A stretch of 63,150 nt of DNA, the filler included, from Sphaeroforma arctica JP610 (lineage: Eukaryota): NCBI RefSeq assembly GCF_001186125.1. It is 6 parts of one record of this genome, joined end to end, with 100 filler letters (N's around TTAATTAATTAA, not from the genome) between each part and the next. Parts side by side here need not be neighbours in the genome. Positions count along the whole stretch, not along the records: positions 53,830 to 63,150 come from NW_014040544.1; 5 more parts are not named here. One strand, given 5' to 3'. The position numbers and the translations under genes are program-made. The notes beneath the pieces were generated by a model. It was given only the letters and a program-made list of their open reading frames with translations. It was not told the DNA's origin and ran no database searches. Positions 40,201 through 63,150 of this stretch are shown piece by piece. The first letter of the stretch is position 1. The number at the start of each line of letters is the position of its first letter.

Positions 40201-41449
40201 TGGTTCACAGCCCCAGACACTCACACCTATCTGCACCTACCAATTGCTACACGCATCGTCGTCGCAGTTGTTCTGGTTAACCCGCTCCTCCTGTCCAGGG
40301 CCACAGACGTTATCTGTCGCACATGTCAGCTGCCGGCAGCAGTTACTGCAGTCACTATCCTCACAATCCGTGTCTGTCGTGCGTTCCTTTCCAGCATCAC
40401 AGACTGGATCACAGGTTAGCTGTGTGCAACAATTAGCACAGGTGCTGTCGTCGCACAGAGTGTCGTCGTGTCCGTTCTTCTCCTCGCCGGATACGCAGGG
40501 ACGCTCCACAGAGCACACCAGATCGTCGCAACAGTTGGAGCAGCGGTTGTCTGTACGAAAACATTTGAATATATATGAAAGGGAAGGTAAAGTGTTACTT
40601 TGTGCAGTGATTAGATCCTGATATAACAGTACATATAAAAAGGGAAAGTAGAGTTGTGTGTGTGTGTGTTGGTGTATGTATTTGTATATATGTATGTCAC
40701 TTTTTTTAGTGTTTAGATAACGGTGTGTGTGCGCCTGATACAACAGTACATATAGAAATGGAAAGTAAAGTTGTGTGGGTGTGTGGGTGTGTGGGTGTGT
40801 GGGTGTGTGTGTGTATATGTATATATGTGTACAGTGTTCAGATATTGGTGTGTGTGCGCCTGATATAACAGTACATATAAAAATGGAAAGTAAAGTTGTG
40901 TGTGTGTGTGTGCGTGTGTGTGTATGTAAGTATATATGTATGTCACTTTGTGCAGTGTTTAAATAATAGTGTCTATGCGCCTGATACATTAGTACACTCA
41001 GCACTATGCCACTTACTACCTTTAAAACTACAATGCATCGACAAAGCACCACGCCAACACTGTACACGCACACCTAAACCCACTAACCATCGCAATCAGT
41101 GTCCCCAGACTCTCTCTGGCTGTCGGTGCAGGTGACATCGGCGTCACACTCCAACTGTTCGCAGCAGCCCGAACAGTCGCCGTTGATGCAGAATCTCTGG
41201 TCCGTGTCGCGCTGGCCAGATGGACAGCGGAACTCAGAACAGCGATCAGGTACGCAGCTATAGGTATGATTAATTATATATTGATATATAATTAACTATA
41301 TACTATGTGAGAAAGATATGGGATGGGAAGGTGCAGTAATTGAAATTCGAGAAGAGTGAGTCCAGGTGTTTGGTTCTGAATCGATACGCACACAGGCAGT
41401 TCAGGCTGAAAGTGCGTCGCCACACACATNNNNNNNNNNNNNNNNNNNN

Positions 41450-41535
<86 letters not shown>

Positions 41536-44500: not shown

Positions 44501-46429
44501 AGTGGGACATGTCACGTCGTCGTCGCAGAGTATCTTACGACAACAGTTTGCGCAGATGGCATCATCGCATTGTTCGTCGCCTGAAATGGTTAGACCCACC
44601 CCGCACACAACGTTCTCACAGCTGTCTTGTTCATCACTACCGTTATCACATGGCGGACAGGGAAGCAGTCCGTTCCAGTTGTTACCTGTGGTGTAATATA
44701 AACGTCAGATCGAGCGGAACCAACGAAGGCTGTTTAAACGGCTTCTAGTGCGAATCATAGAATGCAACTTGCCATGACTAACTGAGCGCCAATGGGTAAA
44801 GACAGCACACATCTAAAACTGAACTGAACCTCATGTATGCAATACAGTACGCTTTATATGAGAAGCACAGCCGTACGCAATCGATAGCAATCAGCAACCG
44901 AAACATGATAAATGCCGCCGTTCTCACATACGAAAACTACGCCACCCATATATGCGAATTCAGAACAATGTAGCATCTTAGTTCGAATGTCGCTTTTCTT
45001 TGGAGTCGCCTATATTTTCTTTACTTACCGAACAATGGAGACTGTGGGCATGGGCAGAGCGTTGGTAAGCAAACGGTGATGACAGGTCCGGTGAAGGTAT
45101 TCTCGCAAAATAAATTCTCGTACGCACAGAAGCTCGCAGAAGCACAGTCGGACGTAACATTCACCGTGTCACAGGCGAATGGCGTGCACATGAGCCCTTC
45201 TGAGATGAAGTTAGGACTGCACACGGCACAAACCCACTCGAAAGCACCGGATGTGGGATTGTACCAGGTGCTCAGCGCCATACAGTCACTGGGGAGGGCT
45301 ATAGAGGTAGGGAGGTTCCAATGGTGAGTGGTTAGACTATGGCATCAGCACTATCAGCACTACGCCCGCGAGATATCAAGAATACCGATGTTCATCCCAA
45401 AGAGAAGCACAAAGTGTGTGTTAGTGGGTTGTCAATTGCGTTGAGCAATTCTGTGTTAGGTTTTAGGTTGTAGTTCTATTTTTGAGTTGCGCTACGTATG
45501 CTTCGGATGATTTGAACGAAATCTTCTTACAGTGGGTCCGAGTACTAAACAGATCAAGTAAATAATGGAGACCTGAACATGCCTTCAGAACTCCCATTTG
45601 CATTTCATACCATTTTCAAAGGATATTGGCAACTTACAAACTACACGATCAAACCAGTGGAGGTGAATATTCAGCCGACATCACGTGCACATTACAATTG
45701 CATACACAATAATCCCGATGACTTGTGAAGATGGCATACTTAAACCTGTACAAATATATTCAACCACACATTGATACACTTACCTGGTTCGGGTCCGGGG
45801 CCCAGGGGTGTGAGTGATCCACTTGGGTCGGGCAAGGTAATGCCACAGTACTCGAAACCTGCCACGGAAGTACTGTTTAGCGCACACTGTGCGATTCCAG
45901 AGTACGTGAGATTCAGGACTGCTTGCTGGCAAGCATCTTCACAGACTGTTCCTACGATGGTCGACATAGACTTGTTGGCAGTTCCCGTTGTGTAATAATC
46001 CAAAAAGTGCATTGGATGCTCTGCAGTGCACCCAGGTGACTCACATATCAAATCATTCAGTTCGGTCTTAATTGCTTGAAAGTCTGCAAATGTGAGGCTG
46101 CCCCTTACACAGAGCTCTACTACTGAGCAATTAGGCGCATTTAACAGACCACATTCGTTAGCTTCAACTAAACGCGTCACCACGACGGTCTCTGTCTCGA
46201 TGTCGGTTTCGTATTCAGTGATGCCACTCTGAAAGGCATCGCCCATGTCACTCGTTTCTGCAGTCATAGCTGTGCTGGATATTATACCATTTCCTGTGCC
46301 TGATCCCTTATTTCCGATGATCGGTCCAGCACCACCCACCTTCACCAAGTCTGCCTTGACAAATGTATTTAAAGACGCGATCGCGGCCAAATATCCGATG
46401 CCCAGAGGCAGCGTACAAAGGTGCATCAT
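31263..46429 (-). CDS. Giant secreted cysteine-rich protein (~25 exons, roughly 2000-2500 aa): signal peptide, ~38-40 six-Cys repeats, myxococcal-type CG(D/N)G...E(E/Q)C(D/E) repeats, TSP1-like bits and a C-terminal beta-rich domain
   Basis: ATG at 46429 (MMHLCTLPLGIGYLAAIASLNTFVKA). Repeat exons lie between ~44686 and ~37387. CGDDVISGTEQCE, CGDGVKTDNEECE, CGNGVVDTGNGEECDEG and CGDGTVDTIRNEQCDPP lie at 37170-33780. The last exon ends at the stop at 31263 with no TM. Continuity across the gap at 35796-35895 is assumed from shared motifs. Confidence 0.8.
33960..34112. repeat. Intronic tandem repeat, ~43 bp x 3-4
   Basis: tag(c/t)atgtgtga.gagtagtacatgagcct..aataagcga is repeated. Confidence 0.8.
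40617..40995. repeat. Intronic tandem repeat, ~120 bp x 3, with (GT)n cores
   Basis: cctgata(t/c)aacagtacatata.aaa.ggaaagta.agttgtgtg occurs at ~40617, 40734 and 40859. Confidence 0.8.
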
Positions 46430-48429
46430 TGTGATGTACAATAAATTCACCACACGAACAGGCGTTCAATAGTTGTACCTGAATATTTTGTGGCAGTATT
46501 CGGGTATACTGTATGGGAATGGAGGACCGAAGTTATAGTCAATACTATTACTATGCGGCGGATAAGTATGCAAGAGCATATGATGAATCAGAGTATTTTT
46601 TTCAACACAATGAAGATAGAAAACCTCATTTTTTTTAAACCGAGTATAATCCACCTGATCAGATCCGATTTGCTGAAACATTTTTATACGGCAGTCCGGC
46701 GACTGGGGTGTCTGGCCGTCCGCTGGTCACAGTGATCACTGATCATTGATCTCTGGCACTGATCTCTGGCATGATAAGCCAGTAAATAGGTGCACCATAG
46801 TCCTCTCCTTCCTTTCCTCATTCCTGTACCCGCCCAACAGTTTTCTGTACATTTATAAATATATATAAATGTCTTTTGTCTTGCTGTTTTTAGTTTTTTG
46901 AGTGTTTTCCATCCTCAGAGTCTTTTAAAATTGTACTTTGCACTAGAGGTTAAATAAGCACCAATAATACTAAGATGTTTTGCGGTGAGTAGGCTGGTAA
47001 CTATGGACTATTTAGATTTTAGAGTATGAATAATGAAACACAAAGTTTAAGAATTTCATAGCATCCTGCGTCGACCTGCGAGGCTGCGACCTGCGGAGTC
47101 CTGATTCCTGAAGTCCTGACTGACCTGACAAAAAGACAACTTGACTCCTGCTTTTTTATAAAAATATACATATATATTTATTTATTTGTGTGTGAGTGTG
47201 CAGGTGCAGTCGTGCACGCTGCACTGAGCAGTGGGCCTGTGTGCATAAATGTCTAATTTAGAAGGCTATGAATAGACAAATAGACCCCCTAAATACAGTG
47301 ATACAGATTATCTCGTTAAAAATCAAAACCAAGATTCTTTTTTAGACAAAAACAAAAAAACCCAAAAAAACAATAAAAATAAAGAATCTGTATTCGACCT
47401 ATTATACTCTCGCGCTGACGGCCTGACGCTCTCAGTCTCGACTCTCGAGACTCGCCGTCTCGCGCGAGTTGCGTGGCTGGTCTCTCCTCTCGGACGTGGA
47501 GTCGTGGACTCGCGGGTGCTGCCACCACGCCGCCGTGACCTTCAACTGTTTTTCAAGTTTTTACACACATACCCAACAGTAAACTTTTTTTTTAGTTTTT
47601 TTTTAAACAAAATACATATTTTCATTTTTGCAAACATAAAATAGCCCACTCGAACTTAGAAGTGAACAGCCATATTTCGGGTCAGACAACACAAAAAAAT
47701 TGGGACGGAAGAGAGCGGCATCTAAATTTAGAGAAACATCCCACTGACACATGTCATAGTTTAAATATTTGTACTGAAAAGTACCTAAAATCATAAATAA
47801 AGTGGTTGAACGATGTGTGTTGTGCTTACAATCGGAATGTACATTATGTTGGACATAACAAATCAGTCAGTGACAATCTCAAGTGAATTGAAAGGTGTCA
47901 TGTCACAAGCAATATGACATCGTGTCAAGAACAGAGCAGGTTGCCGCCCTAAGCAATAAATCTCTATATGACCCCAGTAGGGGAATCAAATAAACTTACT
48001 TCTTATCTGTTTACATCCGTCTAACAGATTATGGGCCTCGAATTTCACCCGATAGTAAGTCAAATATACAATTAATACCCATCTAAACATCAACTAAACT
48101 AAACACTATATAGACATCAAGTCAAACATAGCAGAAAGTTCCTAGAACAAATTTGGAAAATATCACAAATTTTCATATTTATGTCTGATGCAACGGCACC
48201 TCGACTGGCGGTGGGGTGGAGACTGACGGTGACGTATAAGTTTGCTTATGACGACACCACCTATGCGTAGGCTGATTTCAGTTATCACACTTTGAAATGA
48301 TGTCCGACAGTTACATGCCTTCTAATCATTCGACAGAGGCTTAAGGATGCTCTCAGTATTGCTTACACAATGTGCTGGCACACGTGACGTACGATCATCT
48401 GAGTGACGGTGATTAATTATGCTGCCGGC

Positions 48430-49540
48430 GGCCCGATACATGAAAACCCCCTCAAAACAACACTGGCTAGCTGCACAACGTATTTTCCGTTATCTGAAAG
48501 GTGTGGTCAAAACCAAGTATCACTTAGTGACGAGTGTTAAGTCTGAAATAAGTGAGCTCAGTCAGTAAATCACGATCCTATGGGAAATGAGACTTTCTCT
48601 AGCATTGGGTTCTGTGAAAATATTCGCCTCCATGGTTTTAGATCAGTCATCACTTCTATCTTATTAAATTCTCAATTCCACTAATTGGTCCGGTCCTTTG
48701 GTCCGGTCTGCTCAAATATTCCTCTGGTCCAGGTCCGGTCCTCAGAGCCGGTCCTAAATATCTACCTAGGGTACTTTGTCGACAAAGGTACATCACATCT
48801 CGGACTCACCTATAAATACCAACAGGGATCTCCTATTGCTGACGCTATTTCTGACGCCGACTATGCCGCCTGCCCTGATACTCGTCATTTCACTACAGGC
48901 TGGTCGCTTATGGCATGCATACACTCATCAAATCCATCCTACTCGGAATGGAGTTCCGTCAAGCTGCTTGCGATCCTTACCTATTCATCGCCCATAGTGA
49001 TAACCTAAAGTGCTTTGTACTTCTCTATGATGATGATATCCTTTTTTGTGGCCATCGACCAACCGATGTCGATGACTTTAAATCACTTCTCCAAGCCGAG
49101 TTCAATTGTAAGAACTTAGGCAAACCCAGTTGGATATTGGGTGTACGTGTGCTCACCACGTCGGACTTCATCAGCTTAGTGCAAGACATCTACATCCGCG
49201 ACGCCTTATATACCTTCAAATTAGCTGAGAGTCATCTGTACACCCTGCACCGACCCCGTCAACATAAGATATAGTATCTAAAATATACCGGTCCTTGCCA
49301 CAAGTGTGCATACCCTAAATTTATCGGCACGCCACAGTATCTATCTGTACTCACACGTATTGATATGAGCTACGTCCTCAATACATTAGATCGATACATG
49401 GAGAACCCCTCCCAACAACACTGGCTAGCTGCACAACGTATTCTCCGTTATCTGAAAGGTAAATCACATCTCGGACTCGTCTATAACTACCAACAGAGAT
49501 CTCCTATCGCTGACACTATTTCTGACGCAAACTATGCCTG
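48430..49540 (+). mobile_element. Fragmented Ty1/copia pol (RT/RNase H) relics
   Basis: DPYLF, LLYDDDILF (degenerate YVDD), LGKPSWILGV, ENPSQQHWLAAQRILRYLKG (also at ~48440-48503) and SDADYAACPDTRHFTTGW, rearranged and interrupted. Confidence 0.88.
48510..48760. repeat. Dispersed repeat with an inverted counterpart at ~59695-60085
   Basis: gagtgttaagtctgaaataagtga.ctcagtcag and ggtccggtcct..ggtccggtc are reverse complements of ctgactgagttcacttatttcagacttaacactc (~60040-60073) and ggaccggaccagaggaccggacc (~59737-59759). Confidence 0.75.
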
Positions 49541-49603
49541 TAGGGATAATATTATTTATTTCAAAGGAGTTAAGTTACAATGTTTGTACATATGGTATGG
49601 CTC

Positions 49604-50290
49604 TCATAGCCGTTGTAGTGGTTCTGGGAAGATCGATGGGAAGAAGTGGTCATTAAATTCCCTGTTGAAGCTTGGACCAAGTGAGTCGACAATGGAGGAT
49701 ATGCGCTGGGTCAATTCAGGCCGGTGCTGACAAAACACTGACACCATCGAGTGTGCCACGTATTCGCTTTCTGGTCTACTAAATAGCGTACCCACCTCTG
49801 TGGTTCGGATCGGGTATTTGTCGTGTAGTGCTGTGGAATGGGCTAGTGCAGAGTACGAAATGCCAAGTAGGACCAGGTTATCTGTCATATTTCGGTTAAG
49901 GAGCGAGGTTGGAGTTAAACCGATGCCGCACCAGACCACGGATGCACTCGGTATGTGCTGATTTGCCTGTATTAGAAGTATCATAGGCGGAACCAACAGG
50001 CACGATGAATTGGTTTGGACCGAAATTTGGAAGTAATACTTCAACCGCGTGATTAGTCGGGGTATAGGAAACATCTGTTGATATGTCAGAGACGGGTGTG
50101 GGTACAGGGGTTGTTCTACATGCTAGAGAAAATATCCAAGGTGTTCGTGGAGGGTCCAGATACCATGGAAGTCGTGGCGCTCCTGTAGTTGCTGGAGAAG
50201 ATCAGGGCCGATGAGAGGCAGTTTTGGGCTTACTAGGATGCATTGGATCAGTTGCTGGATGCAGGCAAAGTGGCTGGTGGTGAATTTTTG
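49604..50290 (-). pseudogene. Decayed ORF of an unidentified repeat family (copy 1)
   Basis: HFACI...IGPDLLQQLQERHDFHGIWTLHEHL...KYYFQISVQT...LLVPPMIL...SVVWCGI is matched by the copy at 60094-60555, and its C-terminal part by ~59490-59690. Confidence 0.7.
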
Positions 50291-51549
50291 GCCACCGGTG
50301 TAGCATCTAAGGACCAGATTATCAAAACAAACAAACAAAAGCCAATCCAAATCACAAAACCCCGAATAATTAAATACTGAGTTTTGGAATCAGGATTGGA
50401 ATATTTCTGATATTAGAGTCACCAGAAATAGTAGCGTTAGAACCGGTAAGCTATACCGGAATTCCGCATGTGAGAGAAACACTCAAGTAATTCTGAGTCT
50501 AGTGAAAACACAAATAAAGACTCAGTTCGGTTCTCTCAGACTAAGGACTTTCCCTAGCTGAGATAACCGTACTTGAGAAGAGATCTATTGTATCCTATTG
50601 TCTTGTACCTTTCAGCTACTCTCCATACTCTACATTTTTCACAATCTTAGATAAGTCAACAAGTAACCTAGCACACTAAAGAAGTAAAACCAGAGGTGTG
50701 AAAGATAAAACCTTTATTACTGTATTCTGCATATTTAAGCAACCTACGATGAAGTAGTGGGGACCCAGTCAAGAGGAGCAACCTGAGATGTTGAGCCGAC
50801 GACAGAGACGACAGAAGGGCTTTCAAGATAGAAGACAGAAGAAGGAAGAGAAGAAAGAGAAAGCAACTCCTCAGGTAGCAACAGGACTTCAGAACAACAA
50901 CTGAGGTAAAGCATAACGTGTCCAGAAGTAAGCTGGTCACGTTATAGAGTGTTACAACAGTCTGGATGAGTGAACAGTATTGTTACCTAGAAAAAAATTA
51001 TTAGGTGTCAAGGTGATTAATTAATCAATGTTGGGGATTTTCGAATAAAAAAATCCACTGACGTCAGGACCCCTCAGAACCAACACGAGACAATACCCAC
51101 ACAGAATCCACACAACTTAGGCTGGAGCTAGTGTACAATTATAAGAACATTTCAAGTGAGAGGCTTGCTAATTGACCCCCTCAAAGAGCATTAACTAGCA
51201 AGTAAAGGGGTAGCTTGATGATCAATGTATGCATCACAAATCTCTCAAAGACAAGCTAAGCATCACAAGTCAGATACCAAAATAGAACTGACAAAGGTAA
51301 TAATAGACAAGCTACAAGGGTATTAAAAGGGGCTGGATAATTCACTCACAGGAAGTACTATCTAGTGATTTTATAATTAACTTTATAATTATTACACGGG
51401 AATTAGAGATCACATATTAAGATCAATATAAATCCACACACCCTAAGACAGCAAATACGCATACCAGTTAAATCTTCAGAGGAGATCACATATATGGTGA
51501 TGCAAAAGCAGAAAACTATATACTTTTCGGCACAAGAAAAGCCTAGCAA

Positions 51550-53545
51550 ATAGTCTTTGCATCAAACGTGCTAAGATCACACATCACGCACCGTCTGCCT
51601 TCCACGCGAGATCATTTATGGTGAATTGAAATCAGCAAACAACACACATACATAAGGGGCCTTGATACTTACCCTCAGTTATATACTGATGGTGTTTTTA
51701 CTAGTGTTCACCCACTTGGGTTGGCCAGGGTAAAACCTCATATGATCAGTATGAGAAACCTTATGCAGAACACTTTAGCACACAGATATATTTTCTAAAA
51801 ATAAATATATCATATTCTCTGTGTACTACACTCAGTCTCGGACCTCGGCTCTCGGCTAGCCGGTGGCCCGTATCCTATAAATAGAATAACCTGAGAAGAA
51901 GTCTCAAATTACTATTACGTTCTCTCGGGCTGACCCACCTATACTTATATTAATTGAGAACAAGTCCCAGATTACTCTCGGGCTGACGACGTAAAACGTT
52001 ATTAACGTATACAGAAATACGTCTACTACTGTAGTCTCTCAGGCTGACAGACTCAATGTATTTACAGAGGAAGAAACGTTGTTAATAAATGCAAATGATA
52101 TAAATTATCAACCTTTATCTATCTTTAATTCCCGCACCACGAGACCAACGTTTACACATGGACATACAAATCAATAGCAATTCATACAATGCACTAGTAG
52201 ACTCGGGTGCACAACGCTCATGCACGGACAAAAGTGTAGTATCATAACTATATCTTTCAGTTAGAGCGCAACCGGGTTATATACAACTAGCACAAACAAA
52301 TGCAAGAATACAACGCACTGGTTCAACAGAAGTTTGTGACATTAACTATGGAGGTAGAAAGACCTCTCGGTGTTTTTAAAGTATTGGACTTACCTGACAA
52401 AAAGACACCAATACTTCTAGGTAGGGACATTCTACCATACATAGGTATATACATAGCAGGGGTAATCAATCCACTTATACCCACAGATGCAAGATGGGAA
52501 TTACTCCTCACACCACATGAAGAGGACCCAGAGCATGAACAAGAAGGTCTCAGAGAGTCACTTACAGACCTTCTAGATACCAATGCAAATATACCTTCTG
52601 ATGTACATTGCAACCTACCAGGCTTCACAGTCACAGTACTCGCAAATGAAATCAACGTCAGACAAATGAGGCACGCTAACGGCAATTTTGTACATCACAA
52701 ATATATTCCACAAACGGATGAGAATTCGCAAAGGTGGCTTAAGGATGGTTATATATACAAACGTGACACACCCACAACGGTGAACCTACCGTTGTTATCA
52801 ACAGGTAAACATGACCAAACAGGTCTCTTCAAGAAAGTAAGGACATGTCTAGACTTACGTGAGATCAAATATCAATATAAACAAGATAATTTTGTGTTAC
52901 CGAAAATAAAGGAAGTATTACACGACCTCCAAGGAGCACAATTATTTTCGAAGCTAGATCTTACAGGAGGATTTCACCATTTCCTGGTAGACGAAGCAAG
53001 CCAACACTTCTTCACATTCTCGTGGAGAGGAGCGCAATACTCATTCAAGTCTGCGCCGTTTGGACTACACTCACTCACAGCACAATTCCAATGAGTCATG
53101 GCAAATCTGCTCATAGACATCAAAGGAGTGCAAGTGTATGTAGATGACATAGTCATTGCAAGTCTTACGGAGGAAGAACACCGCAAACCAGTTCGTGAAG
53201 TAATCAAGCGACTGAATGGTGCAAACTTCCGACTCAATCACAACAAGTGTGCCTTCGCGGTCAAAGTGGTCAACATACTCGGTGTGAAAGTCACCACACA
53301 GGGACTCAAAGCAGACCCTGAGAAACAGAAAATAATGATGGACTGGCCACTACCCAGAAGAAAAAGAGATCTGCACAAAGCAGTGGGACTAGCAAATTAC
53401 ATGCGAGACCGTGTCCCTAACTTTGCCCACACAACGAAACACTTTCGGAACCTAAAATGAACCAGAACATATCCATGTTATGGACTCCGGAACTCAAACA
53501 GAAGTGGGAAGAACTCAAAGAAGCCATTGTAATAGCCGGGCCTCC
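51550..53545 (+). mobile_element. Decayed Ty3/gypsy gag-pol: degenerate CCHC knuckle, aspartic protease, reverse transcriptase and connection region
   Basis: LCIKRAKITHH..C at ~51556, ALVDSGA at ~52191-52211, PILLGRDIL, RTCLDLR, FSKLDLTGGFHH, APFGL, VYVDDIV and WPLP. There is a frameshift after the protease active site and an in-frame TGA at 53092. Confidence 0.92.
51671..52043 (+). mobile_element. ~370-bp dispersed non-coding element (copy 1), inserted between gag and protease
   Basis: Closely similar to 59129-59490 from accctcagttatatactgatgg to tgtagtctctcagg. An inverted 3' fragment lies at ~58965-59043. Confidence 0.85.
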
Positions 53546-53829
53546 ACATTAGACTCTATGTTATAAACGTACTCTTAATAGTACGAGGAACTTAAGTTTC
53601 CTAAATGGTTTTTAATGGTTTTGTTAATTAATACCTTTTCCATTTTACATATCAGATATTTGGACGAGACCATTAAAAGGTCCCAGTAAAATACCAAACA
53701 TAAGATTTGGTCTAGTTCTATTAATAGAGNNNNNNNNNNNNNNNNNNNNNNNNNNNNNNNNNNNNNNNNNNNNTTAATTAATTAANNNNNNNNNNNNNNN
53801 NNNNNNNNNNNNNNNNNNNNNNNNNNNNN

Positions 53830-54945
53830 TTTAATAAATCCGTACGTGAGTTACTAGCCACTGACTGGAAATGTAATCCCAGGTGGTTTGAAATGGCTCA
53901 AAAGATATTTGGGCCACATAATATAGATATGTTTGCTGCACATCATAATGCACAACTATCGAATTACAGGACTTTAAATCATCCTTTGGGAGACGCCTTT
54001 CAAATAGACCTCTCCAAACTTAATGCGTGGGCTAATCCACCATGGCAGTTAATTGCCCAGCTATTAAATTATGTTAATATACATAAAGCTACCATCACGG
54101 TGTGTTGCCCATTACGGAGTAAAGATCCATGGCTCAATAAATTAATAAGCATGATACAATGCGAGCCAATATATTTAGATAGGGAAGTAGATACTTTCCT
54201 ATATCAGGGTACCCGCCTGAGCCGTCCAGAAGACGGCCTGGTGACACACTATAATATGTCGTATAGGTCCCATTGGAACAACCAAATGGACCCCTTCTGA
54301 GACCTTCCTTAAAAAGGTCAAAGAATTGGAGATTCCCCTCTCCACTAGAATGAACGTAAAACAGTTCAAAGACAACACAGCATTTGAAGTCTGTGCACAA
54401 GAGATACAATCTACTACTGACACTACAGGTAAGAAGCGTCAATCTCTAGCTCGTACTTTCTTTAATAATATAAAGTCCAAGCCCGAAGTCTTTCAGACAC
54501 TCTTTCTAAAGGGATTAATGAAAGATATTCCCGAATTATATACACATATAATGCAACTATTGAGCAAGTCAGGTGTATCAAACGCACAAGAGCGCACTAG
54601 TGACACTCACGCAAAAGAAGGACAGGAGTCTGGAAACACTACAGATTTAGAGAACACGCAAGTGGATTCTCAACGCCCTTCCTTTATTCTGGAAGAGCAG
54701 AATGATGATAACATTCTCGCTTGGCTGACGTAAAACCATAAACTCAAGCACCAGAATATAGTAGACGCACTTAAAGATGCTAAGCGAAATGGGATCGCGC
54801 ACCCTAAGTTGGCAACTTAAGTTGACAGAGTAAATCAGTCATGTACAGACCGTGAACTCAACCAGATTGAGCGCTATGGGTTCGCACCGCTTAAGAGTGT
54901 GACAGAAGATGTTCCATGGCGCAGGGTCATCAACAAATAATTGAA
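53830..54945 (+). mobile_element. Retroelement pol fragment: N6-adenine DNA methyltransferase-like (DIRS MT/Dam-like) domain, linker, then gypsy-type integrase HHCC zinc finger
   Basis: Open from the gap: DWKCNPRWF...FGPHNIDMFAAHHNAQL...DAF...WANPPWQLI (NPPW at 54034). After one frameshift and stops: NHKLKH-x30-SCTD(R)ELNQIERYGFAPLKSVTEDVPWRRV (54734-54930). Confidence 0.8.
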
Positions 54946-54959
54946 TATTGAGCAGGCCA

Positions 54960-55200
54960 CACGACACCCTGTACCATCATACGCAGTCAAAATGGCAAAA
55001 CCCAGACATAATGTCACGACTAAAAACTTTACTAAGAGTACATGTGATGCAAATGGTAAAGCATAATTCGAAAGGATATACTGTAAGACTATGTTTAAGT
55101 GGTCTAAAGCTAAGTGATCAGTAAGAAGTGTAAAACTTTGCCGGAAGTGAGAGTGTTTCATCTGGTGAAACACCAAGATGTACGCCACGGGCGCTGGTAG
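54960..55200 (-). mobile_element. Inverted gypsy-type RNase H fragment
   Basis: FRQSFTLLTDHLAL matches the gypsy RH F.L.TDH.AL motif; the surroundings are degenerate. Confidence 0.55.
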
Positions 55201-55482
55201 TGACTACTCCGGATGGCTGTCTGGTAAAGGCACAATTCGGAACTTGCAAAATCGTGCCACTAGCTCTGCGATTGCAAATGTCTTACAGCTCTAGACATCA
55301 ATACGCCTGTCCCTCTGGACACCAGTACGTGTGTCCCTATGGATACCAATACGTTTGTCCCCATCTGTTATAATGAACTTTCAGGTAGACATTCAATCGA
55401 AACAGTCAAGGATACACGGACCAAGTAGTATGTGGCCCTGGCGAACAAATTGGAAGTACGGGCAGAATTTCTGGCTTTTGAT

Positions 55483-56005
55483 TGAGCAACAGTGTACAAA
55501 GAACCTGGGCGCAGCGGTGATATGTCGTGGCCCGGAGACAAAACAGAAATGATTCTCTATAGGCTCTCTAGGCATACAAAATGTGAGCAGCATCAAAGCT
55601 AGCGAGCGATCAAAGGAAACGTACGAGCAAGTCGGTTTAATATGTATGATATTAGGAGAACTACCGAGGAATGGAGTCGATGTAGTACTAAACTATTTCA
55701 ATCATTGTCCAGATCTGGCACGTGTAGCGAGTTATTTATTAAGAATGCGTGTGAAACAGGGTTTTAGGGTTTAGTTTAGGGTTTGGGGTTTAGGGGTTAA
55801 AATGGTTAATGATGGAGCAACAGTATACAAGGAACCAGTTCAGTCGCAGTGGTGATATGCCGTGGCCTAGAGACAAAACAGAAAATATTCTCTTTAGACT
55901 CTAGGCATACACAATATGAGCAGCACCAAAGCCAATGAGCTATCAAAGAAATCGCGCCAGCAAGCGGGTTTAACATGTGTGATCTTGGATGAAGTACCAA
56001 GGAAT
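55483..56005. repeat. Imperfect direct duplication (~190 bp) separated by a telomere-like tract
   Basis: gagcaacagt.tacaa...gtgatatg.cgtggcc..gagacaaaacagaaa...tctaggcataca.aat.tgagcagca.caaagc occurs at 55483 and 55815. The tract agggttttagggtttagtttagggtttggggtttagggg is at 55758-55796. Confidence 0.8.
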
Positions 56006-56199
56006 GAGGAAAATGAAGTAATACAAGCCGTGAAGTCGTGAAGTCGTGAAGGTGAAAAAGGTAAATTAAATACTCTTGATGATCCCTGTTGTTGTCAAAA
56101 CCAATAACTAGCCCCTTATCAAGAATTACAGATTTGCCATCATCAGGCTGTCGATCTGGTTGACTGAACGGAGGATAAACTAGCTAAAGGTAATAGTCT

Positions 56200-57800
56200 C
56201 TATAAATCTAATTTCGGTTGAGCCATCTCGCTACCAAAGTGTTCAAATATATATCTTCCGGAGGGGTTTAATAGGTCCTTTTTAATAGGCCTACTAGGGC
56301 TGACTAGGACGCGTGCCCGCCCTCCTGACTTGGCGAGAATAAATTGTCGTGGACGCAGAAGGCGTGATTTTTGTTGATATGGCGAATATAACCCGCTGCT
56401 TCTTGCTTGTTGTATCCACCCATGGCGACCTTTTCGTCTACTTAGTGTACGCCGATGAGATGTCCCAGCTTGCTCGGTTAGGCTCACCTGGGCCCCGCAG
56501 GACGAGAATCCTACAGCGGATTCACTGAATCACCTGCCGTGAAGCGCCGGCTTCACGACAAGCCGCGATTTTTGTTATAGCGTCTTCAAATAGGGGTGGG
56601 AGTAATGTCTGTGGATCAACTGGTACTAGAGGAATTGCAGTCGGTTATGAGGATTGAGATTTCGACACATAGAGATTCGATACGTGTTTAATGCGCTACC
56701 TTCTCGAAAGGATTCGTGTTTCCTTTGGAAGGATTAGTATTCTCCTGATATTGATTACCACGTGGATTGTGTCCGCAATGGGTATATTCCCTTGTTGGCG
56801 ATTTGTATGATTGTATCGGATACCCCTTTGATGAGGACTAATTCATATTTCTTTTGTATGACAGCCCTGAATGTTTCAAAGTCTCGGCGTATGTCACGCA
56901 TAAATGGTAATTGTAAAAACTGCGACATTTATGTCTATAATTATTGTATATAACTTAATTCTGGAGCCTGCTATGATATTATCGCCCTAGATACCATCAT
57001 GATGAAAGGGTGAGAAAGGATGCAGTTTGCGGTTTCGAGATTAAAGTATTAAGATATGTAAATACTTGTATATTTTTTCTTAAAGGATATGAATATGTAT
57101 ATACTTTTCTTTTTTATGCTTCTACCTTTGTTTGCTTGGCGTTTTCGGTTCCATTTATTTATTTATTTACACACTTACGCGTCATAGAATTTACAGGGTT
57201 CTCTCTGTAAAGAGAATACCAGGACTCAAGTCCTAGTTAAGACGCTTTGCAATCTCATCAGCTTGGGGAAAAAGTCTATCTTTATCTTCCTGGTTCTTAT
57301 ATAGGCGTTGACGCTGTTTATTTTTGATATCTTTTTGTTTGGTAATCTGTATTTCCAAAATTCGATGGTGTGATGTTTTTCACCTCGTTGTCATGAAACT
57401 GTTTCTTGTAGTATGCAATTCTATTAGCGGCTTACATCTATATTTAAGAATATCTTGAACTCATGTTGTTCAAGGGGTGTAGTATCGTCATATGGGGCCT
57501 GGAGGACAATATTGCAATAGACATCGACGATTGTACGGATAGAAAAATTGAATCGCCCACTTGTGTAAACAATGGTCTGTATTCAGCTTCATTCGGTTAA
57601 TACAAGAACTGCACGACCATTACGCATATTGTTCGACTCTTCGTGTGTAAAGTTGGCTTTGAAATATCCAGCCTTCACGCTACCTAAATATTGTGATTAG
57701 CCAGGACTACCTCGGATAACAAAATCACCCGTCCGTGTGGTGAGTTGATTATTGAATAACAAGAAATCACCTTCATGTTTTATTCGATATTGTTAATACG
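56200..57800 (-). mobile_element. Very degenerate non-LTR (LINE-like) endonuclease/RT relic
   Basis: Weak motif remnants on the minus strand (VRDIRRDFE resembling LDIxKAFD, RQQGNIPI resembling RQGxP), with many stops. Confidence 0.3.
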
Positions 57801-58222
57801 ATCTCGAGCTATATATCTGTCGTCTATTGCCCGTTGTTATGAAAATGAATATCAAATGCCGCTCGAACTCATATCTATCAGTGATCCCTATCATATAGAC
57901 AGCATGTAAATATTGTCTTGAGAACCACATCGGAAAGGCTGCTTACAAACCTCATTTTACTTCCGGATATCTTGTTTTAGGTTTCGTCTACATAATATTG
58001 CGCTATATCCGAGTTGAGTATTACATAGACTTTTAAGCTTCGATCTTTGTTCTTGTTTATTTCTAACTTAGCAGTGCGTTATTCTAAGTACAGTGTTCCA
58101 CTTTTTAATGGATGTTCTCTTGGAAGTATTTCTATGCTTGTGACGGTAGAGCATTAAATTGATCTCACACATATCAAGCACACAATATATTCCTTCTCAT
58201 CTCAACATACCCCACAATCAAA

Positions 58223-58490
58223 TTAATGTGTACTCAATGAGCAGTTGGTTCGCATTAACTTCGTTAGATCATTTTTATCTAAATGTTCACACCATCAATT
58301 AGTTCTGCTGAACCTATACATTTCTATCATCCGTTCCAATACTGCCCTCACATGCATTAATGTGTACTCAATGAGCAGCTGGTTAGCATTAACTCCGTTA
58401 GATCATTTTCTTCAAATGTAACACCATCTATTGGTTTATACATTTCTATCATCCATTGGTTTATACATTTCTATCATCCGTTTCTATACT
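58223..58490. repeat. Tandem duplication, 2 x ~133 bp
   Basis: attaatgtgtactcaatgagcag.tggtt.gcattaact.cgttagatcatttt occurs at ~58223 and ~58356. Confidence 0.85.
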
Positions 58491-59128
58491 TGATTATGGC
58501 ATGTACATGATTATGGCAGGGACTGAGATCTTTTACTTTGTTTTATGATAACTCAACTGGATACGTATAAACAATCACTGACAGCCGGCACTATTTTATC
58601 ACATGTGCGATCTTTCACTACAAGAATCACACATATTAAGCCAGTGTCTGTTTAGACTGATCGCAAAATCTCATTCTTAACACTCATGAGCTGCCTTCTT
58701 CTCCTTATTCAAATACTATTCAAATGCATACGGCAATCCTACAGGTATATGAGCATGTTGTACACTTGATCTCTATGTCATTGTGAGATTATCAGCGTTA
58801 TCGACAAGATTAATATTCACACGATGCTTTTGAAAATTATTATTCAGAAGTAAACATGGATAGAGATAATATTATTTATTTTGATTTGTCAACATTTTTT
58901 GTATGTCTACACACGTATCAGGCTTCATATTCGTTCGAGAAGTTCGGGGGAAATTGAAGGGAAGTGAGAGACTACAGAAGTAGATGTATTTCTATATACG
59001 TAAACAACGTTTTACGACGTCAGCCCGAGAGTAATTTGGGACTCGGACCTGATAAGTTGTTAGCGTGCGATGTGGATTGCTATAATTGAAGTGCAAACGT
59101 ATATATAGAATGGTTTATTTATGATCTC

Positions 59129-59490
59129 ACCCTCAGTTATATACTGATGGTGTCTGTACTAGTGTTCAACCACTTGGGTTGGCCAGGGTAAAAACTCATA
59201 TGATCACATCAGAACACTTTATCACTCGAATATATATTATAGAAAAATAAATGTATCATATTCTCTGTTTCGTACACTCAATCTCGGACCTCGGCTCGCG
59301 GCTAGCCGGTGGTCCGTGTCCTATAAATAGAATATTCTGAGAAGAAGTCTCAAATTACTCTTACGTTCTCTCGGGATGATCCACCTATACATATAGTAAC
59401 TTGAGAACAAGTCCTATATTACTCTCGGGCTCACGACGTAAACCGTTATTAACGTATATAAAAATACGTCTACCTCTGTAGTCTCTCAGG
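59129..59490 (+). mobile_element. ~370-bp dispersed non-coding element (copy 2)
   Basis: Direct repeat of 51671-52043. It abuts and truncates the unknown-ORF fragment at ~59490. Confidence 0.85.
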
Positions 59491-60093
59491 AAGTCAAGAT
59501 TGTCGAACTGCCGTGAGAAGCTCGGGGCGGGTGATGTAACGATGGAAGACATACGGTGCATTAGTTCACGTCGATGGATACAGAATACCTCTACCATTGG
59601 GTTAGAATTAAAATCTGTGTGCCATTGCGTAGAATAAAGCTGACCCACACTCATAGTAGGTAACCTGTGTGGACAAAGTACCCTGGACGGAGGTTTAGGA
59701 CCGGACCAGAGGACCAGACCTAATGGAATTGTTTCAGGACCGGACCAGAGGACCGGACCATATAGGGATAATATTATTTATTTCAAAAATGGCAAGTATG
59801 TATGATACAATGTAGTGTGGTGTAGGATATGGTAGTGTGTGTTCGAGCGTATATGATTAAGATGAGATAATCTGGTTGGTGTTAAGGATGACTCCTCGGA
59901 CGTTATCATAATTTAGTAACTAAGTAACCAAAACCATAGATTTGGGTATTTTCACAATTACCCGTTGCTAGAGAAAATCTCGTCCTATAGAGGAACGTGA
60001 TTAATAAATACAGCAGACTCGCCGTTTAAAACGGCACTTCTGACTGAGTTCACTTATTTCAGACTTAACACTCTTTACTAAGCGTTTTAGGGT

Positions 60094-60555
60094 TTAGGGA
60101 AATATTTTGAACGTGATATCAAGTAGGATGAGGTTGTCGTCTGCAATTCTGTTTCGGAGCGGAGTTGGAGGCAGCTCGATACCACACCACACAACTGATG
60201 TATTTGATATGTCCTGGCTAGCCTTAGCGGGAAGTATCATAGGTGGTACCAGAAGTCTCGAAGATTTGGTCTGTACCGAAATTTGAAAATAATACTTGAG
60301 TAGAATGATGAATCTGGGTATATGGAACATCAATTTATCGACCAGTACTGGATGGGGATATATTGGTGCTCGCTGTTCATGAAGAATGAAGCTCTCGAGA
60401 TGTTCGTGGAGAGTCCATATGCCGTGGTAGTCATGCCGATTCTGTAGTTGTTGTAGTATATCCGGTCCAATTGGAGATGGATTAGGACCCACCAGAATAC
60501 GCCTTCTTAAGAAACTGATACAAGCAAAGTGGCTAGGCACACAGGATAGAGGCAT
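60094..60555 (-). pseudogene. Decayed ORF of the same unidentified repeat family (copy 2), truncated at a telomere-like tract
   Basis: Clear protein similarity to 49604-50290. Homology stops just before ttttagggtttaggg (60085-60099). Confidence 0.7.
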
Positions 60556-61679
60556 CCACCAGTGGGTTAGTCAAGCAACTCGAACAGAAACGTGTTGGTT
60601 GCTATTATACACGAAGGCGGATTGGGGTGTGTTCGCGGCAATGGGTAAAGCTATCATAAGAGAGCTTGACCCAGTCCGTGATGAGAAGTTCTCCTCTTTA
60701 TAAGTCGATAGAAGTATTGGCGGCGAGCCTTGCCTGTTTTCTCCCTAGTTGTGAACGTTAAGTCGTATTATGTCAGATTTGCTCGTGGAGCTTACGGTGT
60801 TCTTTGTGCTAAGGTGCGCACCCGCCTTTTGACTCCAGATAAGCTTAAATACTGAACGAGAATTTGTCCGGAGGTCATGGATAGAACAAAAAAAGAAGAT
60901 TTACTGAACTAATCAATCTAGTACGTGCTAGGTTGGCTCATTCATTCATTCACCTTACTTGCTACAGAACCGGCGAGGTCGCAAAGTCGAACCTTGTCTT
61001 AGATAGATTTTGTGATGGGATACACCGATCAACTTGGAGTAGGCCAGCATTATTGTCCAGCGCGGAAGATCCAATAAAATCCGCCCATGAGTGAATCGTG
61101 CGGACTGAAATCAAAGTACTCGCGACACATATTTTCAGTTTTGTTGTCAATAAGGGGAATACTACTGAACCAATAGATTGAGTACCGGTACGTGTAAATA
61201 CAATTCACATTGTTGTATTCACAGCGTGATAAGCGTGGCTGTAGCATACATGTGACGGAACGCAAGGTAGGCTCTACATGGCTGGATAAGTAGTTGTCTA
61301 GTTGTTATATAGCATTGTCTAGTTGTTATACAGCATACGTTGGTAAACTTGATAGTAAACTAGAATATGTTGTGCAGTACTGTAATTTGTCAGCGCGTGT
61401 AGAAGGTTGTACCGTTGATGGATTGTGTACAATTTCACAAACGCCAGCAACCCCTTGTTGCGTTCTCACGTACGACAACACTAATTGCCACGATTTTTCC
61501 ACTTTTCAGGTCAATCCGGACAAGGAGAAAATCTGATGGGGTACACATTTAACATAGAGGTCGACCATTTATCTGCACCGTAGAACAATATTGACTCAAT
61601 AGAGTTTTCACATAGTATATCGCTTTGATCCTTTAATAATAAATTGACGCGGCGATATTATGGAGGCTATACTACGCTA

Positions 61680-62300
61680 TCTCAATAAGAGGCCTGGCCC
61701 TGACGGGATCCACATCCTTCTCCTGAAGACCGCAGTGGAGCGCTCCACAGAACACTAAAAGCCCTGACGCCAATTGCCCACTAATTAAACTTCTTGCCGA
61801 AGCATTTACTGAGCTACTGAAGGCGGGTAACTTTCCTGCAGCCCTGAAATGCACTCTCCTAACAGCGTACCCTAAAAAGCCGATGTAAATATCACTCCCC
61901 CGCCCACTTGCAAGTAGTCAGATGCATCGTTGTTGCGAAGTGCTTCCTCAAGCTGACTACGAGCCACCCTGGCTCTGCTACCCATGCCACCCAAGCTGGC
62001 TTTAAATCACGATACTCCTGCCATACCCAAGCACTCGCCGCCATGGAACCTGAGACACAACCGGAAGAGGAGTGGAAGGACGTCTGTCTGGACATTACTA
62101 AGGCATACGACAAGGCTGTTCCCCCGACCTGTGGGTACTCTATCGCCACGCTGGAATACCTGAAAGCTGGATCAACTGCCTCCGCGCGCTATTTGAGAGG
62201 GTCCTGAATATGGCACCCACATATGCCAAGCCTAAAGTCTCCAAATACCTGGGGTTCTCACTCTCCCACGGAATCGAGAGATCAACTTCGCCAGACATAT
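61680..62300 (+). mobile_element. Decayed non-LTR retrotransposon reverse transcriptase fragment
   Basis: NKRPGPDGIHILLLK (resembling KAPGPDGI), PKK, QAGF, CLDITKAYD and KYLGF, interrupted by frameshifts. Confidence 0.8.
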
Positions 62301-62996
62301 GGAATCCCTGGTTGCGGCATTGTAGAAATACGGCCTCCGGTCAGTCTAAAATATCAAGATCAATTGAGATAATACATTGGTTTTTATTTGTATTTTAAAT
62401 AATTTAATACAAGCTCCTTTTCCAATATTTCCAAAGTGTTCTAAATTCATTTTGATGGCTCCAATAGCCTGAGTATTTGGTATGACTCATCTACTTGGAC
62501 CTATTTGAGACATTAGTAGATGTAGGATATTATAGACTAAATTTTATAATCTCCGAACTACTACTTATAGATTTTGGTCCTCCCGCCAATCTCCAAAATC
62601 CAATAAGTCTTTTTCTTTTTTTATAACTTTTCTTCAGATGGAACTTTATTTATATCAGCTAATGTATTAACGTGACTTACGTTATTATGTCTATCTACAA
62701 ATTAGGCATGTGGTCATGAACACATAGTACTTCTAGTGAAAATTATTCAATAAAGAACAGCTAGAGGTAGGCCCTGTGTGATCGAGGATATTTAGGCTCT
62801 TAACAAGAGGCAGTCCCGATCATTCTTACACAAGCTACCACTGCTAAATCCTAACTGACTAAATTGTATTTTAGTTTAATATAGCTTGAAACCTAGTAAT
62901 TTCCATCGGAGTTTACATATTTTTCAGTTATTTAGTAGTTACAGTAGTGTACTGCTTCTAGACTGTCTAACATCGATTTACTATCCAGCAAATACT

Positions 62997-63150
62997 ATGG
63001 CTAAGGGTACTTCTAAAGGCAAGGGAGCCGCTAGCTCTAAGCCTGCTAAGCCTGCCGAGGTTCCTGAGGTCCCTGTGGAAACACCTAGCCTGTCTGGAGT
63101 TGAGCATGCCGAGGAAACTGTTGGGGAAGCCAATTCTGAGCTTGGTACAG
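62997..63150 (+). CDS. 3'-truncated ORF (MAKGTSKGKGAASSKPAKPAEVPEV...), possibly a retroelement gag or a host gene start
   Basis: ATG at 62997, frame open to the window end, GC-richer than the flank. No diagnostic motif. Confidence 0.4.
   Translation, partial: MAKGTSKGKGAASSKPAKPAEVPEVPVETPSLSGVEHAEETVGEANSELGT

What the first reader, a model, noticed from the sequence alone, without database searches (positions are those of the whole stretch)
53830..54945. Ty3/gypsy-type retrotransposon carrying an N6-adenine DNA methyltransferase domain in front of its integrase
Seen: a frame open from the gap encodes DW...GPHNIDMFA...NAQL...DAF...WANPPW, with the catalytic NPPW intact. After one frameshift near 54230 the frame continues (PIGTTKW...ELEIPLSTR...) through a ~170-aa linker. 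Reading through stops, it reaches H-x3-H-x30-C-x2-(R, CGT one change from TGT) followed by RYGFAPLKSV....PW. Established: this MT signature is the Dam-like domain of DIRS (tyrosine-recombinase) retrotransposons, whereas an HHCC finger plus PL....PW opens a DDE integrase of LTR elements. DIRS elements lack both DDE integrase and protease. Inference: a gypsy lineage with the order PR-RT-(RH)-MT-INT captured an adenine methyltransferase, possibly to mark or protect its cDNA or mimic host 6mA. MT and INT lie on one contig. The link to the upstream PR-RT crosses a gap, although the orientation and order fit.
Basis: partly seen in the sequence, partly recalled or inferred. Interest (0 to 1): 0.88.

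Follow-up and report, generated by a model that had tools for sequence, protein, structure and literature searches.

The report
Broken gypsy retrotransposon with adenine methylase
This is a broken piece of a gypsy-type jumping gene that carries an adenine-methyltransferase-like domain just ahead of its integrase, a real design already described in a 2026 preprint; in intact relatives the domain likely marks the element's new DNA copies (untested), and the reverse transcriptase across the assembly gap most likely belongs to a second, related element.

Summary
Real but already described. 53830-54932 encodes a Dam-like N6-adenine methyltransferase domain (Pfam Dam E 4.5e-6; DMFA and NPPW intact), a linker and an HHCC finger, cut off at the start of the integrase core. 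Eight relatives are single ORFs with RT-RH-Dam-HHCC-DDE integrase, so the architecture is no chance juxtaposition. These are the DAM-LTR retrotransposons of bioRxiv 10.64898/2026.05.21.726589. The nearest named relatives come from Sphaeroforma arctica and Abeoforma whisleri, hosts of its ichthyosporean lineage. This scan has met the design on other DNA (23 notes).

One correction: the PR-RT left of the gap groups with family A (86% in RT), the MT with family B. AU tests reject pairing them (p 1e-5 and 0.001). A high-copy repeat starting TG cuts the RT at 53528. So two elements lie here, not one.

This copy is dead: a frameshift, three stops, Arg for one zinc cysteine, truncation. The intact domain's best structural match is the RNA cap methyltransferase PCIF1 (Z 10.1), ahead of T4 Dam (7.8), so a DNA substrate is not settled. 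Side find: two Ty1/copia polyproteins carry the same domain; the preprint's text never mentions copia.

The parts
53830..54270 (+). Dam-like / PCIF1-like N6-adenine methyltransferase domain of a DAM-LTR family B element. DMFA motif 53926-53937, NPPW 54034-54045. Frameshift near 54215-54220 and a stop at 54242 remove the last strand.
   Evidence: Pfam Dam E 4.5e-6; 71% and 67% identical to P0004 and P0005; tree 100/99 with them; indel at 54215 in about half of the laid contig depth; stop
54271..54706 (+). Poorly conserved linker between MT and integrase, open in frame
   Evidence: The stretch from MT end to finger aligns at 31-35% to P0004/P0005. Linker identity among intact relatives is 11-49%; spacer 51-206 aa in the 6 relatives measured.
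54707..54932 (+). HHCC zinc finger and first residues of a DDE integrase; stops at 54731 and 54818, Arg at the second Cys (54851); truncated at 54932
   Evidence: Own profile iE 1.1e-16; 52% to P0005; codons. Other copies read Cys at 54851 in 98-100% of laid depth in 4 of 4 runs and continue past 54932 into the integrase core motif (loose ends listed for 3 of 4 runs); contigs of 3 of 4 runs bridge the truncation point.
53730..53829 (.). Assembly gap: N44-TTAATTAATTAA-N44, a placeholder that occurs 5 times in the window, so its true size is unknown
53528..53729 (+). Left end of a high-copy repeat starting TGTAAT, likely an LTR, inserted into the family A RT; possibly the 5' LTR of the family B element (inferred, not shown)
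   Evidence: Loose ends before 53528 with unlike flanks: 52, 40 and 7 contigs, agreement 0.40, 0.36, 0.43, in 3 of 4 runs listed; summed depth jumps 40-fold or more. Protein homology to family A stops here.
52042..53527 (+). PR-RT fragment of a different DAM-LTR family (A); frameshifts near 52.1k, 52.35k and 53.45k, stop at 53092; cut before RNase H
   Evidence: 74-75% to P0006/P0007; RT tree 100/99 with family A; AU p 1.2e-5 against grouping with family B
51663..52041 (+). Separate ~380-nt multicopy repeat ending in CA (solo-LTR-like) that abuts the family A fragment; second copy at 59122-59490
   Evidence: 86% self-match; 21 contigs leave at 52041 with unlike flanks, agreement 0.38
57110..57510 (-). 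Degraded, inverted piece matching the C-terminal tail of a family B Pol; likely a separate older relic
   Evidence: tblastn to P0004 residues 1249-1358, E 4e-11; own profile iE 4e-4; near single-copy depth at 85% likeness

Best explanation
This is a dead fragment of a Ty3/gypsy DAM-LTR retrotransposon whose intact relatives encode RT-RNase H-adenine methyltransferase-integrase in one Pol reading frame, and the PR-RT left of the gap most likely comes from a second, sister family. Shown: the domain order in relatives, the intact DxFA and NPPW motifs, the lesions in this copy, and the split ancestry of the two halves. Inferred: a TG-starting LTR element, perhaps family B itself, inserted into a family A copy at 53528, and the gap hides the unassembled middle. 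Inferred mechanism in live copies (about 45% on its own): Pol is packaged and cleaved; the MT stays close to RT-RH (about 15 aa behind RH in family B, against a 155-206 aa loose linker to the integrase) and methylates adenine N6 on the cDNA or RNA:DNA hybrid during reverse transcription; after integration the host AMT1 system would maintain the 6mA and keep the new copy transcribable. This last model is the preprint's, not mine, and is untested. The host is probably an ichthyosporean close to Sphaeroforma.
For: 8 of 41 proteins found with the DAM profile are 995-1651 aa ORFs with RT-RH-Dam followed by HHCC and D-D(35)-E; 5 of the 8 have a Pfam rve hit. RT and DAM trees of these 8 give the same three families: one capture, then vertical descent. 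In the 3 between-family pairs DAM keeps 46% identity, as RT does (43-46%), while the linker falls to 11-14%. NPP[WFY] stands in 142 of 182 aligned homologues. The model of the intact P0004 domain (pLDDT 93) matches N6-adenine methyltransferases. The window DAM lies in a 22-row group (94/95) with S. arctica P0008 and A. whisleri P0059 and P0061. Two elements: window RT 86% to P0006 over 233 columns; window DAM 71% to P0004 but 36-41% to P0006/P0007; AU p 1.2e-5 and 0.0012; repeat edge at 53528. The preprint (whole text read) reports more 6mA and higher expression on DAM-LTRs than on other LTRs in S. arctica and A. whisleri.
Against: No activity has been shown: the preprint's DAMs did not raise 6mA in dam-deficient E. 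coli, and its 6mA enrichment is a correlation. Iyer et al. 2016 (PMC4738411, passages) place the DIRS MTase with the RNA enzyme PCIF1 and call it likely inactive. My fold searches rank PCIF1 first (Z 10.1, rmsd 3.7, 142 aligned) over T4 Dam (7.8) and E. coli Dam (7.6). P0005, the nearest tree neighbour, has CPPW for NPPW. No LTR pair, gag or full element could be seen: no genome is held and 4 contig scans found nothing. The finger misses Pfam Integrase_H2C2. The 22-row group is just under the star threshold and that bootstrap had not settled. The host is inferred, not shown.
Confidence: 0.75

Rival explanations
1. Same element class, but the domain methylates RNA, like PCIF1: the cap-adjacent or an internal adenosine of the element's own transcript, or the RNA strand of the hybrid, which would protect or sort the genomic RNA.
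For: PCIF1/CAPAM is the top match in both structure searches: Foldseek E 7.4e-5, all 3 matches under 0.001; VIA-align Z 10.1, next row 8.7; rRNA methylases KsgA, Erm and DIMT1 at 7.6-8.5 rank with or above the Dams. Iyer et al. put the DIRS domain in the PCIF1 clade. The domain is only about 135 aa; the preprint says it lacks part of the Dam target-recognition region and did not methylate E. coli DNA.
Against: By sequence the domain matches phage DNA methyltransferases (Pfam Dam; PHROG 111 in 4 of 5 members, best E 6.8e-17). Identity to PCIF1 is 12-16%. A shared fold shows no function. The preprint links DAM-LTRs to hosts with AMT1 and to 6mA on DNA.
Confidence: 0.22
2. The domain is kept as a non-catalytic nucleic-acid or SAM-binding module, inherited with RH from a DIRS donor, and methylates nothing.
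For: Iyer et al. call the DIRS copies likely inactive. No activity in E. coli. 40 of 182 homologues depart from NPP[WFY], and P0005 has CPPW.
Against: NPPW is kept in 8 of the 9 nearest LTR-type relatives shown (P0004-P0012) and in the window; D and F of the first motif are invariant in 41 of 41 rows.
Confidence: 0.2
3. The window shows one element, a natural recombinant of family A PR-RT and family B MT-INT, with RNase H hidden in the gap.
For: Same strand and expected order; the missing part is RNase H; the gap size is unknown.
Against: Family A homology ends at 53527 on the same contig, 200 nt before the gap, where a separate high-copy repeat begins. Among the 8 intact relatives none mixes RT and DAM of different families.
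Confidence: 0.07
4. Chance juxtaposition of a DIRS MT relic and an unrelated integrase relic.
For: The finger peptide hits no Pfam integrase profile.
Against: MT, linker and finger align colinearly to single ORFs P0004 and P0005, and the whole stretch 53830-54932 is multicopy as one block in 4 of 4 runs.
Confidence: 0.01

Closest known systems
DAM-LTR retrotransposons, 'Ichthyosporean DAM-LTR lineage' (Fernandez-Moreno et al., bioRxiv 10.64898/2026.05.21.726589; whole text read, figures not held, supplements closed)
   Same: Ty3/gypsy Pol with a Dam (PF05869) domain and NPP motif; DAM groups with S. arctica and A. whisleri proteins; DIRS-type RT-RH-MT ORFs are the outside relatives.
   Different: This copy is a dead fragment. 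The text does not give the DAM position for the ichthyosporean lineage (it may be in Fig. 2B, which I could not see). It says the lineage lacks chromodomains, whereas C-terminal pieces of P0006 and P0010 give weak Chromo hits (E 1.1e-4 and 1.7e-4, under the cut-off) and the P0004 piece none.
MT domain of DIRS1-like tyrosine-recombinase retrotransposons (Piednoel et al. 2011, PMC3266345, passages; Iyer et al. 2016, PMC4738411, passages)
   Same: Same domain directly behind RT-RH; 29-37% identity to the window MT in the nearer such ORFs.
   Different: In DIRS the pol region is RT-RH-MT and the recombinase is a separate ORF. Here the ORF goes on into HHCC-DDE integrase, carries a protease, and the RT groups apart from those ORFs (100/99).
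PCIF1/CAPAM cap-specific adenosine N6-methyltransferase (PDB 6irw, 6irx)
   Same: Best structural match to the intact domain.
   Different: 12-16% identity; the element's domain is about 135 aa against 470-490 residues in the PCIF1 chains; substrate unknown.
Phage and bacterial Dam-type DNA adenine methyltransferases (Pfam PF05869, PHROG 111; T4 Dam 1q0s, E. coli Dam 2ore)
   Same: Profile matches; fold match Z 7.6-7.8.
   Different: Much shorter; embedded in a polyprotein; no DNA methylation shown.

Membership tests
Ty3/gypsy LTR retrotransposon | Pol order PR-RT-RH-INT in one ORF | tested here: met
   Met in the relatives P0005, P0006, P0007 (all four domains by Pfam). The window holds only pieces, from two families.
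Ty3/gypsy LTR retrotransposon | HHCC finger and D-D(35)-E integrase | tested here: met
   Three acidic residues align in 8 of 8 intact relatives, 35 residues between the second D and E in P0004. In the window the finger is present but the core is cut off at 54932.
Ty3/gypsy LTR retrotransposon | Paired LTRs (TG...CA), target-site duplication, primer-binding site, gag | tested here: inconclusive
   One TG-starting repeat edge at 53528; no pair in 44000-63150; no genome or loci to test on.
Ty3/gypsy LTR retrotransposon | RT groups with reference Ty3/gypsy RTs | tested here: inconclusive
   The RTs group with other integrase-bearing RVT_1 ORFs and apart from the RT-RH-MT ORFs (100/99), but no named reference elements were in the tree.
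DAM-LTR (preprint 2026) | Dam PF05869 domain inside an LTR-type Pol | tested here: met
   Window E 4.5e-6; relatives E 4e-15 to 8e-5.
DAM-LTR (preprint 2026) | Asn-Pro-Pro catalytic triplet | tested here: met
   NPPW at 54034-54045.
Ichthyosporean DAM-LTR lineage | DAM in one clade with Pirum, Abeoforma and Sphaeroforma sequences | tested here: met
   Group of 22 rows, support 94/95 (rough), holds S. arctica P0008 and A. whisleri P0059 and P0061. S. arctica P0036 is 71% identical over 155 aa to family B P0005.
Ichthyosporean DAM-LTR lineage | No chromodomain | tested here: inconclusive
   None in family B; weak hits under the cut-off in P0006, P0010 and P0012.
Ichthyosporean DAM-LTR lineage | Host with AMT1 and 6mA; 6mA enriched on the element | not testable with these tools
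   No genome and no modification data held.
DIRS1-like retrotransposon | Tyrosine recombinase, no DDE integrase or protease | tested here: not met
   The nearest relatives carry rve and, where the ORF reaches it, an aspartyl protease; the MT ORF runs on into an HHCC finger in the window.
Active N6-adenine methyltransferase | Methyl transfer to DNA or RNA adenine | not testable with these tools
   Motifs and fold fit; the only published test was negative. This copy is broken.

The most novel reading that the evidence does not exclude
The 'Dam' domain of these retrotransposons is not a DNA methylase but a miniature PCIF1-like enzyme that N6-methylates the element's own RNA (cap-adjacent or in the RNA:DNA hybrid). 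It is useful enough to have been captured by Ty3/gypsy several times and also by Ty1/copia, at two different positions (P0160, P0166).
Probability: 0.2. Interest if true: 0.7.

Novelty: already known. Interest (0 to 1): 0.2.

Why it matters
A transposon that writes the host's 'active chromatin' mark on its own new copies would turn epigenetic defence on its head, and what the DIRS/DAM domain methylates has been open since DIRS elements were described. This locus does not move that question: it is a broken copy of a described kind. What it adds is small: exact domain order and natural intact ORFs for three families (P0004-P0012) that keep NPPW and could be assayed, a structural pointer to PCIF1 that argues for testing RNA as well as DNA, and a lead that copia elements captured the domain too.

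Tried and rejected
No genome is held for the window, so copies could not be searched directly. Scans of viral contigs (P0004; DAM alignment) and metagenome contigs (DAM alignment; P0011) gave 0 loci in 4 of 4 scans, so LTR pairs, gag and the tyrosine recombinase next to the DIRS-type ORFs were not seen. No RNA holder was listed among the sequencing runs; this says nothing about expression. A fold from a 5-sequence alignment was poor (pLDDT 52) and was not used. The DAM profile found no solved structure by sequence (1 hit, E 0.27, unrelated). The Atlas did not hold the window peptide; homologue P0008 gave RT- and Dam-bearing eukaryotic clusters and one named 'PCIF1 WW domain-containing'. ApT and GATC counts in the two fragments were unremarkable (o/e 0.94 and 1.03 against 1.06). 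The repeat pair 51663-52041 / 59122-59490, 7.4 kb apart, looked like the element's LTRs; rejected because no gag lies between it and the protease, and other family A copies run on upstream of 52042 with different sequence (2 contigs in one run). A possible gag zinc knuckle near 51560 hit no Pfam family. Summed contig depth is not a copy number and is used only to mark repeat edges. One script stopped early, so spacer lengths were measured in 6 of 8 relatives. PMC12695648 (passages) gave nothing on Sphaeroforma. A search for 'LTR retrotransposon', 'Dam-like' and 'Ty3' up to 2025 found 0 papers.

Full report
1. Observation. The frame shifts near 54215-54220. The next frame has stops at 54242, 54731 and 54818 and carries H-x3-H-x30-C-x2-R at 54737, 54749, 54842 and 54851. 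It does hit a profile built from 8 relatives without the window, at iE 1.1e-16, with nothing else in the window under 0.09, and is 52% identical to the finger of P0005. The window has no RNase H and no integrase core.

2. The architecture is real. The MT peptide found two long proteins among 155 candidates, P0004 and P0005. Both are single ORFs with RT-RH-Dam-rve, P0005 also with a protease. MT, linker and finger of the window align to them in order. A DAM profile found 41 proteins: 8 are RT-RH-Dam-INT ORFs of 995-1651 aa; 2 are partial S. arctica proteins; 2 carry Dam behind the integrase; 29 are mostly 470-820 aa, with RT and a Dam near the end, the DIRS layout (9 of the 29 were scanned by me; their recombinase could not be checked). 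All 8 keep the three acidic integrase residues. In the organism's own sequencing runs 53830-54932 is covered by many different contigs in 4 of 4 runs. Other copies read cysteine at 54851 and run on past 54932 into the integrase core motif, while contigs of 3 runs bridge the truncation, so the break is in the DNA and not an assembly error.

3. The two sides of the gap are two elements. The RT's closest relatives are P0006 and P0007 (77% and 76%; 2 hits among 820 candidates). They also carry RH-Dam-INT, but their DAM is only 36-41% identical to the window's, while P0004 and P0005, whose DAM is 67-71% identical, match the window's PR-RT at 34-36%. In trees the window RT falls in family A (100/99; 35 rows) and the window DAM in family B (100/99; 41 rows). 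AU tests on reduced sets of 11 and 12 rows reject RT with B (p 1.2e-5) and DAM with A (p 0.0012); the groups were named after the larger trees had been seen. Family A homology ends at 53527. At 53528 a repeat begins with TGTAAT, summed depth rises 40-fold or more, and 52, 40 and 7 contigs enter with unlike flanks. That is the left edge of an inserted element, likely an LTR. It may be the 5' LTR of the family B element, whose middle would then lie in the gap; this is inferred. The gap is a placeholder of unknown size. The family A piece is also cut on its left, at 52042, by another repeat.

4. The domain. Between families DAM is as conserved as RT (46% against 43-46%), the linker is not (11-14%). 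NPP[WFY] stands in 142 of 182 aligned homologues; P0005 has CPPW. The library search found 6580 proteins at E up to 0.001, of which 150 were listed. A model of the intact P0004 domain from 66 sequences is confident (pLDDT 93). Its best matches are PCIF1/CAPAM (Foldseek E 7.4e-5; VIA-align Z 10.1, rmsd 3.7, 142 aligned), then rRNA N6-adenine methylases (7.6-8.5), T4 Dam (7.8) and E. coli Dam (7.6). By sequence the domain leans to phage DNA methyltransferases.

5. How it most likely works. This copy does nothing: the MT lacks its last strand in frame and the integrase is cut. In live copies I put about 45% on the preprint's model: the MT travels with RT-RH in the particle, marks the cDNA or hybrid with 6mA, and host AMT1 keeps the mark after integration. 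The spacing fits (MT begins about 15 aa after RH in family B, 155-206 aa before the finger), as does the preprint's 6mA enrichment. Against it stand the negative E. coli assay, Iyer et al.'s view that the DIRS domain derives from PCIF1 and is inactive, and my fold ranking. An RNA substrate gets about 22%, a non-catalytic role about 20%. The confidence of 0.75 on the best explanation is for class and two-element reading; the mechanism alone is lower. Pol processing and packaging of Ty3/gypsy elements are recalled textbook knowledge, not from a call.

6. What is known. Fernandez-Moreno et al. (bioRxiv 10.64898/2026.05.21.726589, 22 May 2026; whole text read; figures not held; supplements closed and they may hold this very family) report Dam domains in Ty3/gypsy elements in five lineages, one in Pirum, Abeoforma and Sphaeroforma. 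The window's DAM sits in a 22-row group (94/95, rough) with proteins named from S. arctica and A. whisleri, and S. arctica SARC_08637 is 71% identical to family B P0005 over 155 aa. Another 20-aa stretch of that protein matches the window at 62706-62765 (85%). The host is therefore probably an ichthyosporean; this is not shown. Piednoel et al. 2011 (passages) define the DIRS pol as RT-RH-MT with MT of unknown function. I ran 7 answered paper searches; none listed an earlier report of Dam in LTR elements, but most subscription journals are not in the library. This scan has 23 earlier notes that hold the same words, in at least 3 genomes, none on this sequence; they are unchecked AI notes and were seen after my own tests of class and prior art.

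7. Verdict. Observation confirmed, interpretation partly supported, kind already known. Interest 0.2. The most useful leftovers are the PCIF1 pointer and the copia polyproteins P0160 and P0166; the preprint's main text has 0 occurrences of 'copia' or 'Ty1', and one paper search (listing only) showed no title on it.

Noticed in passing
P0160 (1838 aa) and P0166 (2098 aa), found: Ty1/copia polyproteins (RVT_2, Pol_BBD, SH3_retrovirus) with a Dam domain (E 7e-11, 1e-8; DVFA and NPPW intact): after the protease in P0160, between the gag zinc knuckle and the protease in P0166. Their DAMs are sisters (100/99). P0160 has a full-length twin from a second source. Not mentioned in the preprint's main text.
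   Followed up: partly
P0069 (2144 aa), P0084 (2382 aa): ORFs with endonuclease/exonuclease/phosphatase - Dam - RT - RH - integrase zinc finger: an unusual layout, perhaps akin to the mixed Euglena elements of the preprint.
   Followed up: no
P0041, P0043, P0075, P0079, P0151: Further integrase-bearing elements whose DAMs fall among DIRS-type ORFs, apart from the window's group: at least three more captures, one with Dam behind the integrase.
   Followed up: partly
C-termini of P0006, P0010, P0012: Weak chromodomain hits under the Pfam cut-off, although the preprint says the ichthyosporean lineage lacks chromodomains.
   Followed up: partly
P0037 (1465 aa); P0020 (776 aa, Olpidium bornovanus): P0037 joins a C5-cytosine methylase, RT and Dam in one ORF; P0020 joins dUTPase and Dam.
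   Followed up: no
window 48879-49538 +: Degraded Ty1/copia RT (RVT_2 E 3.9e-12) with short internal duplications.
   Followed up: no
window 2-2659 +: ORFs with repeated transthyretin-like / SdrD B / carboxypeptidase-regulatory domains, of bacterial adhesin type, in a eukaryotic genome.
   Followed up: no
window 36700-46500 -: Long multi-exon gene for a cysteine-rich repeat protein (C-x-x-C-C units), probably extracellular; no Pfam family.
   Followed up: no
window 21907-24294 -: RNase H1-like gene: N-terminal hybrid-binding domain and RNase H domain separated by a ~400-aa low-complexity stretch.
   Followed up: no
window 55765-55795 and 60086-60099: Short runs of TTTAGGG/TTAGGG-like repeats inside the repeat-rich region; variable in other contigs at 55769-55774.
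   Followed up: no
window 55479-55673 and 55810-56006: Local 195-nt duplication, 79% alike, in the unique DNA right of the truncated integrase.
   Followed up: no
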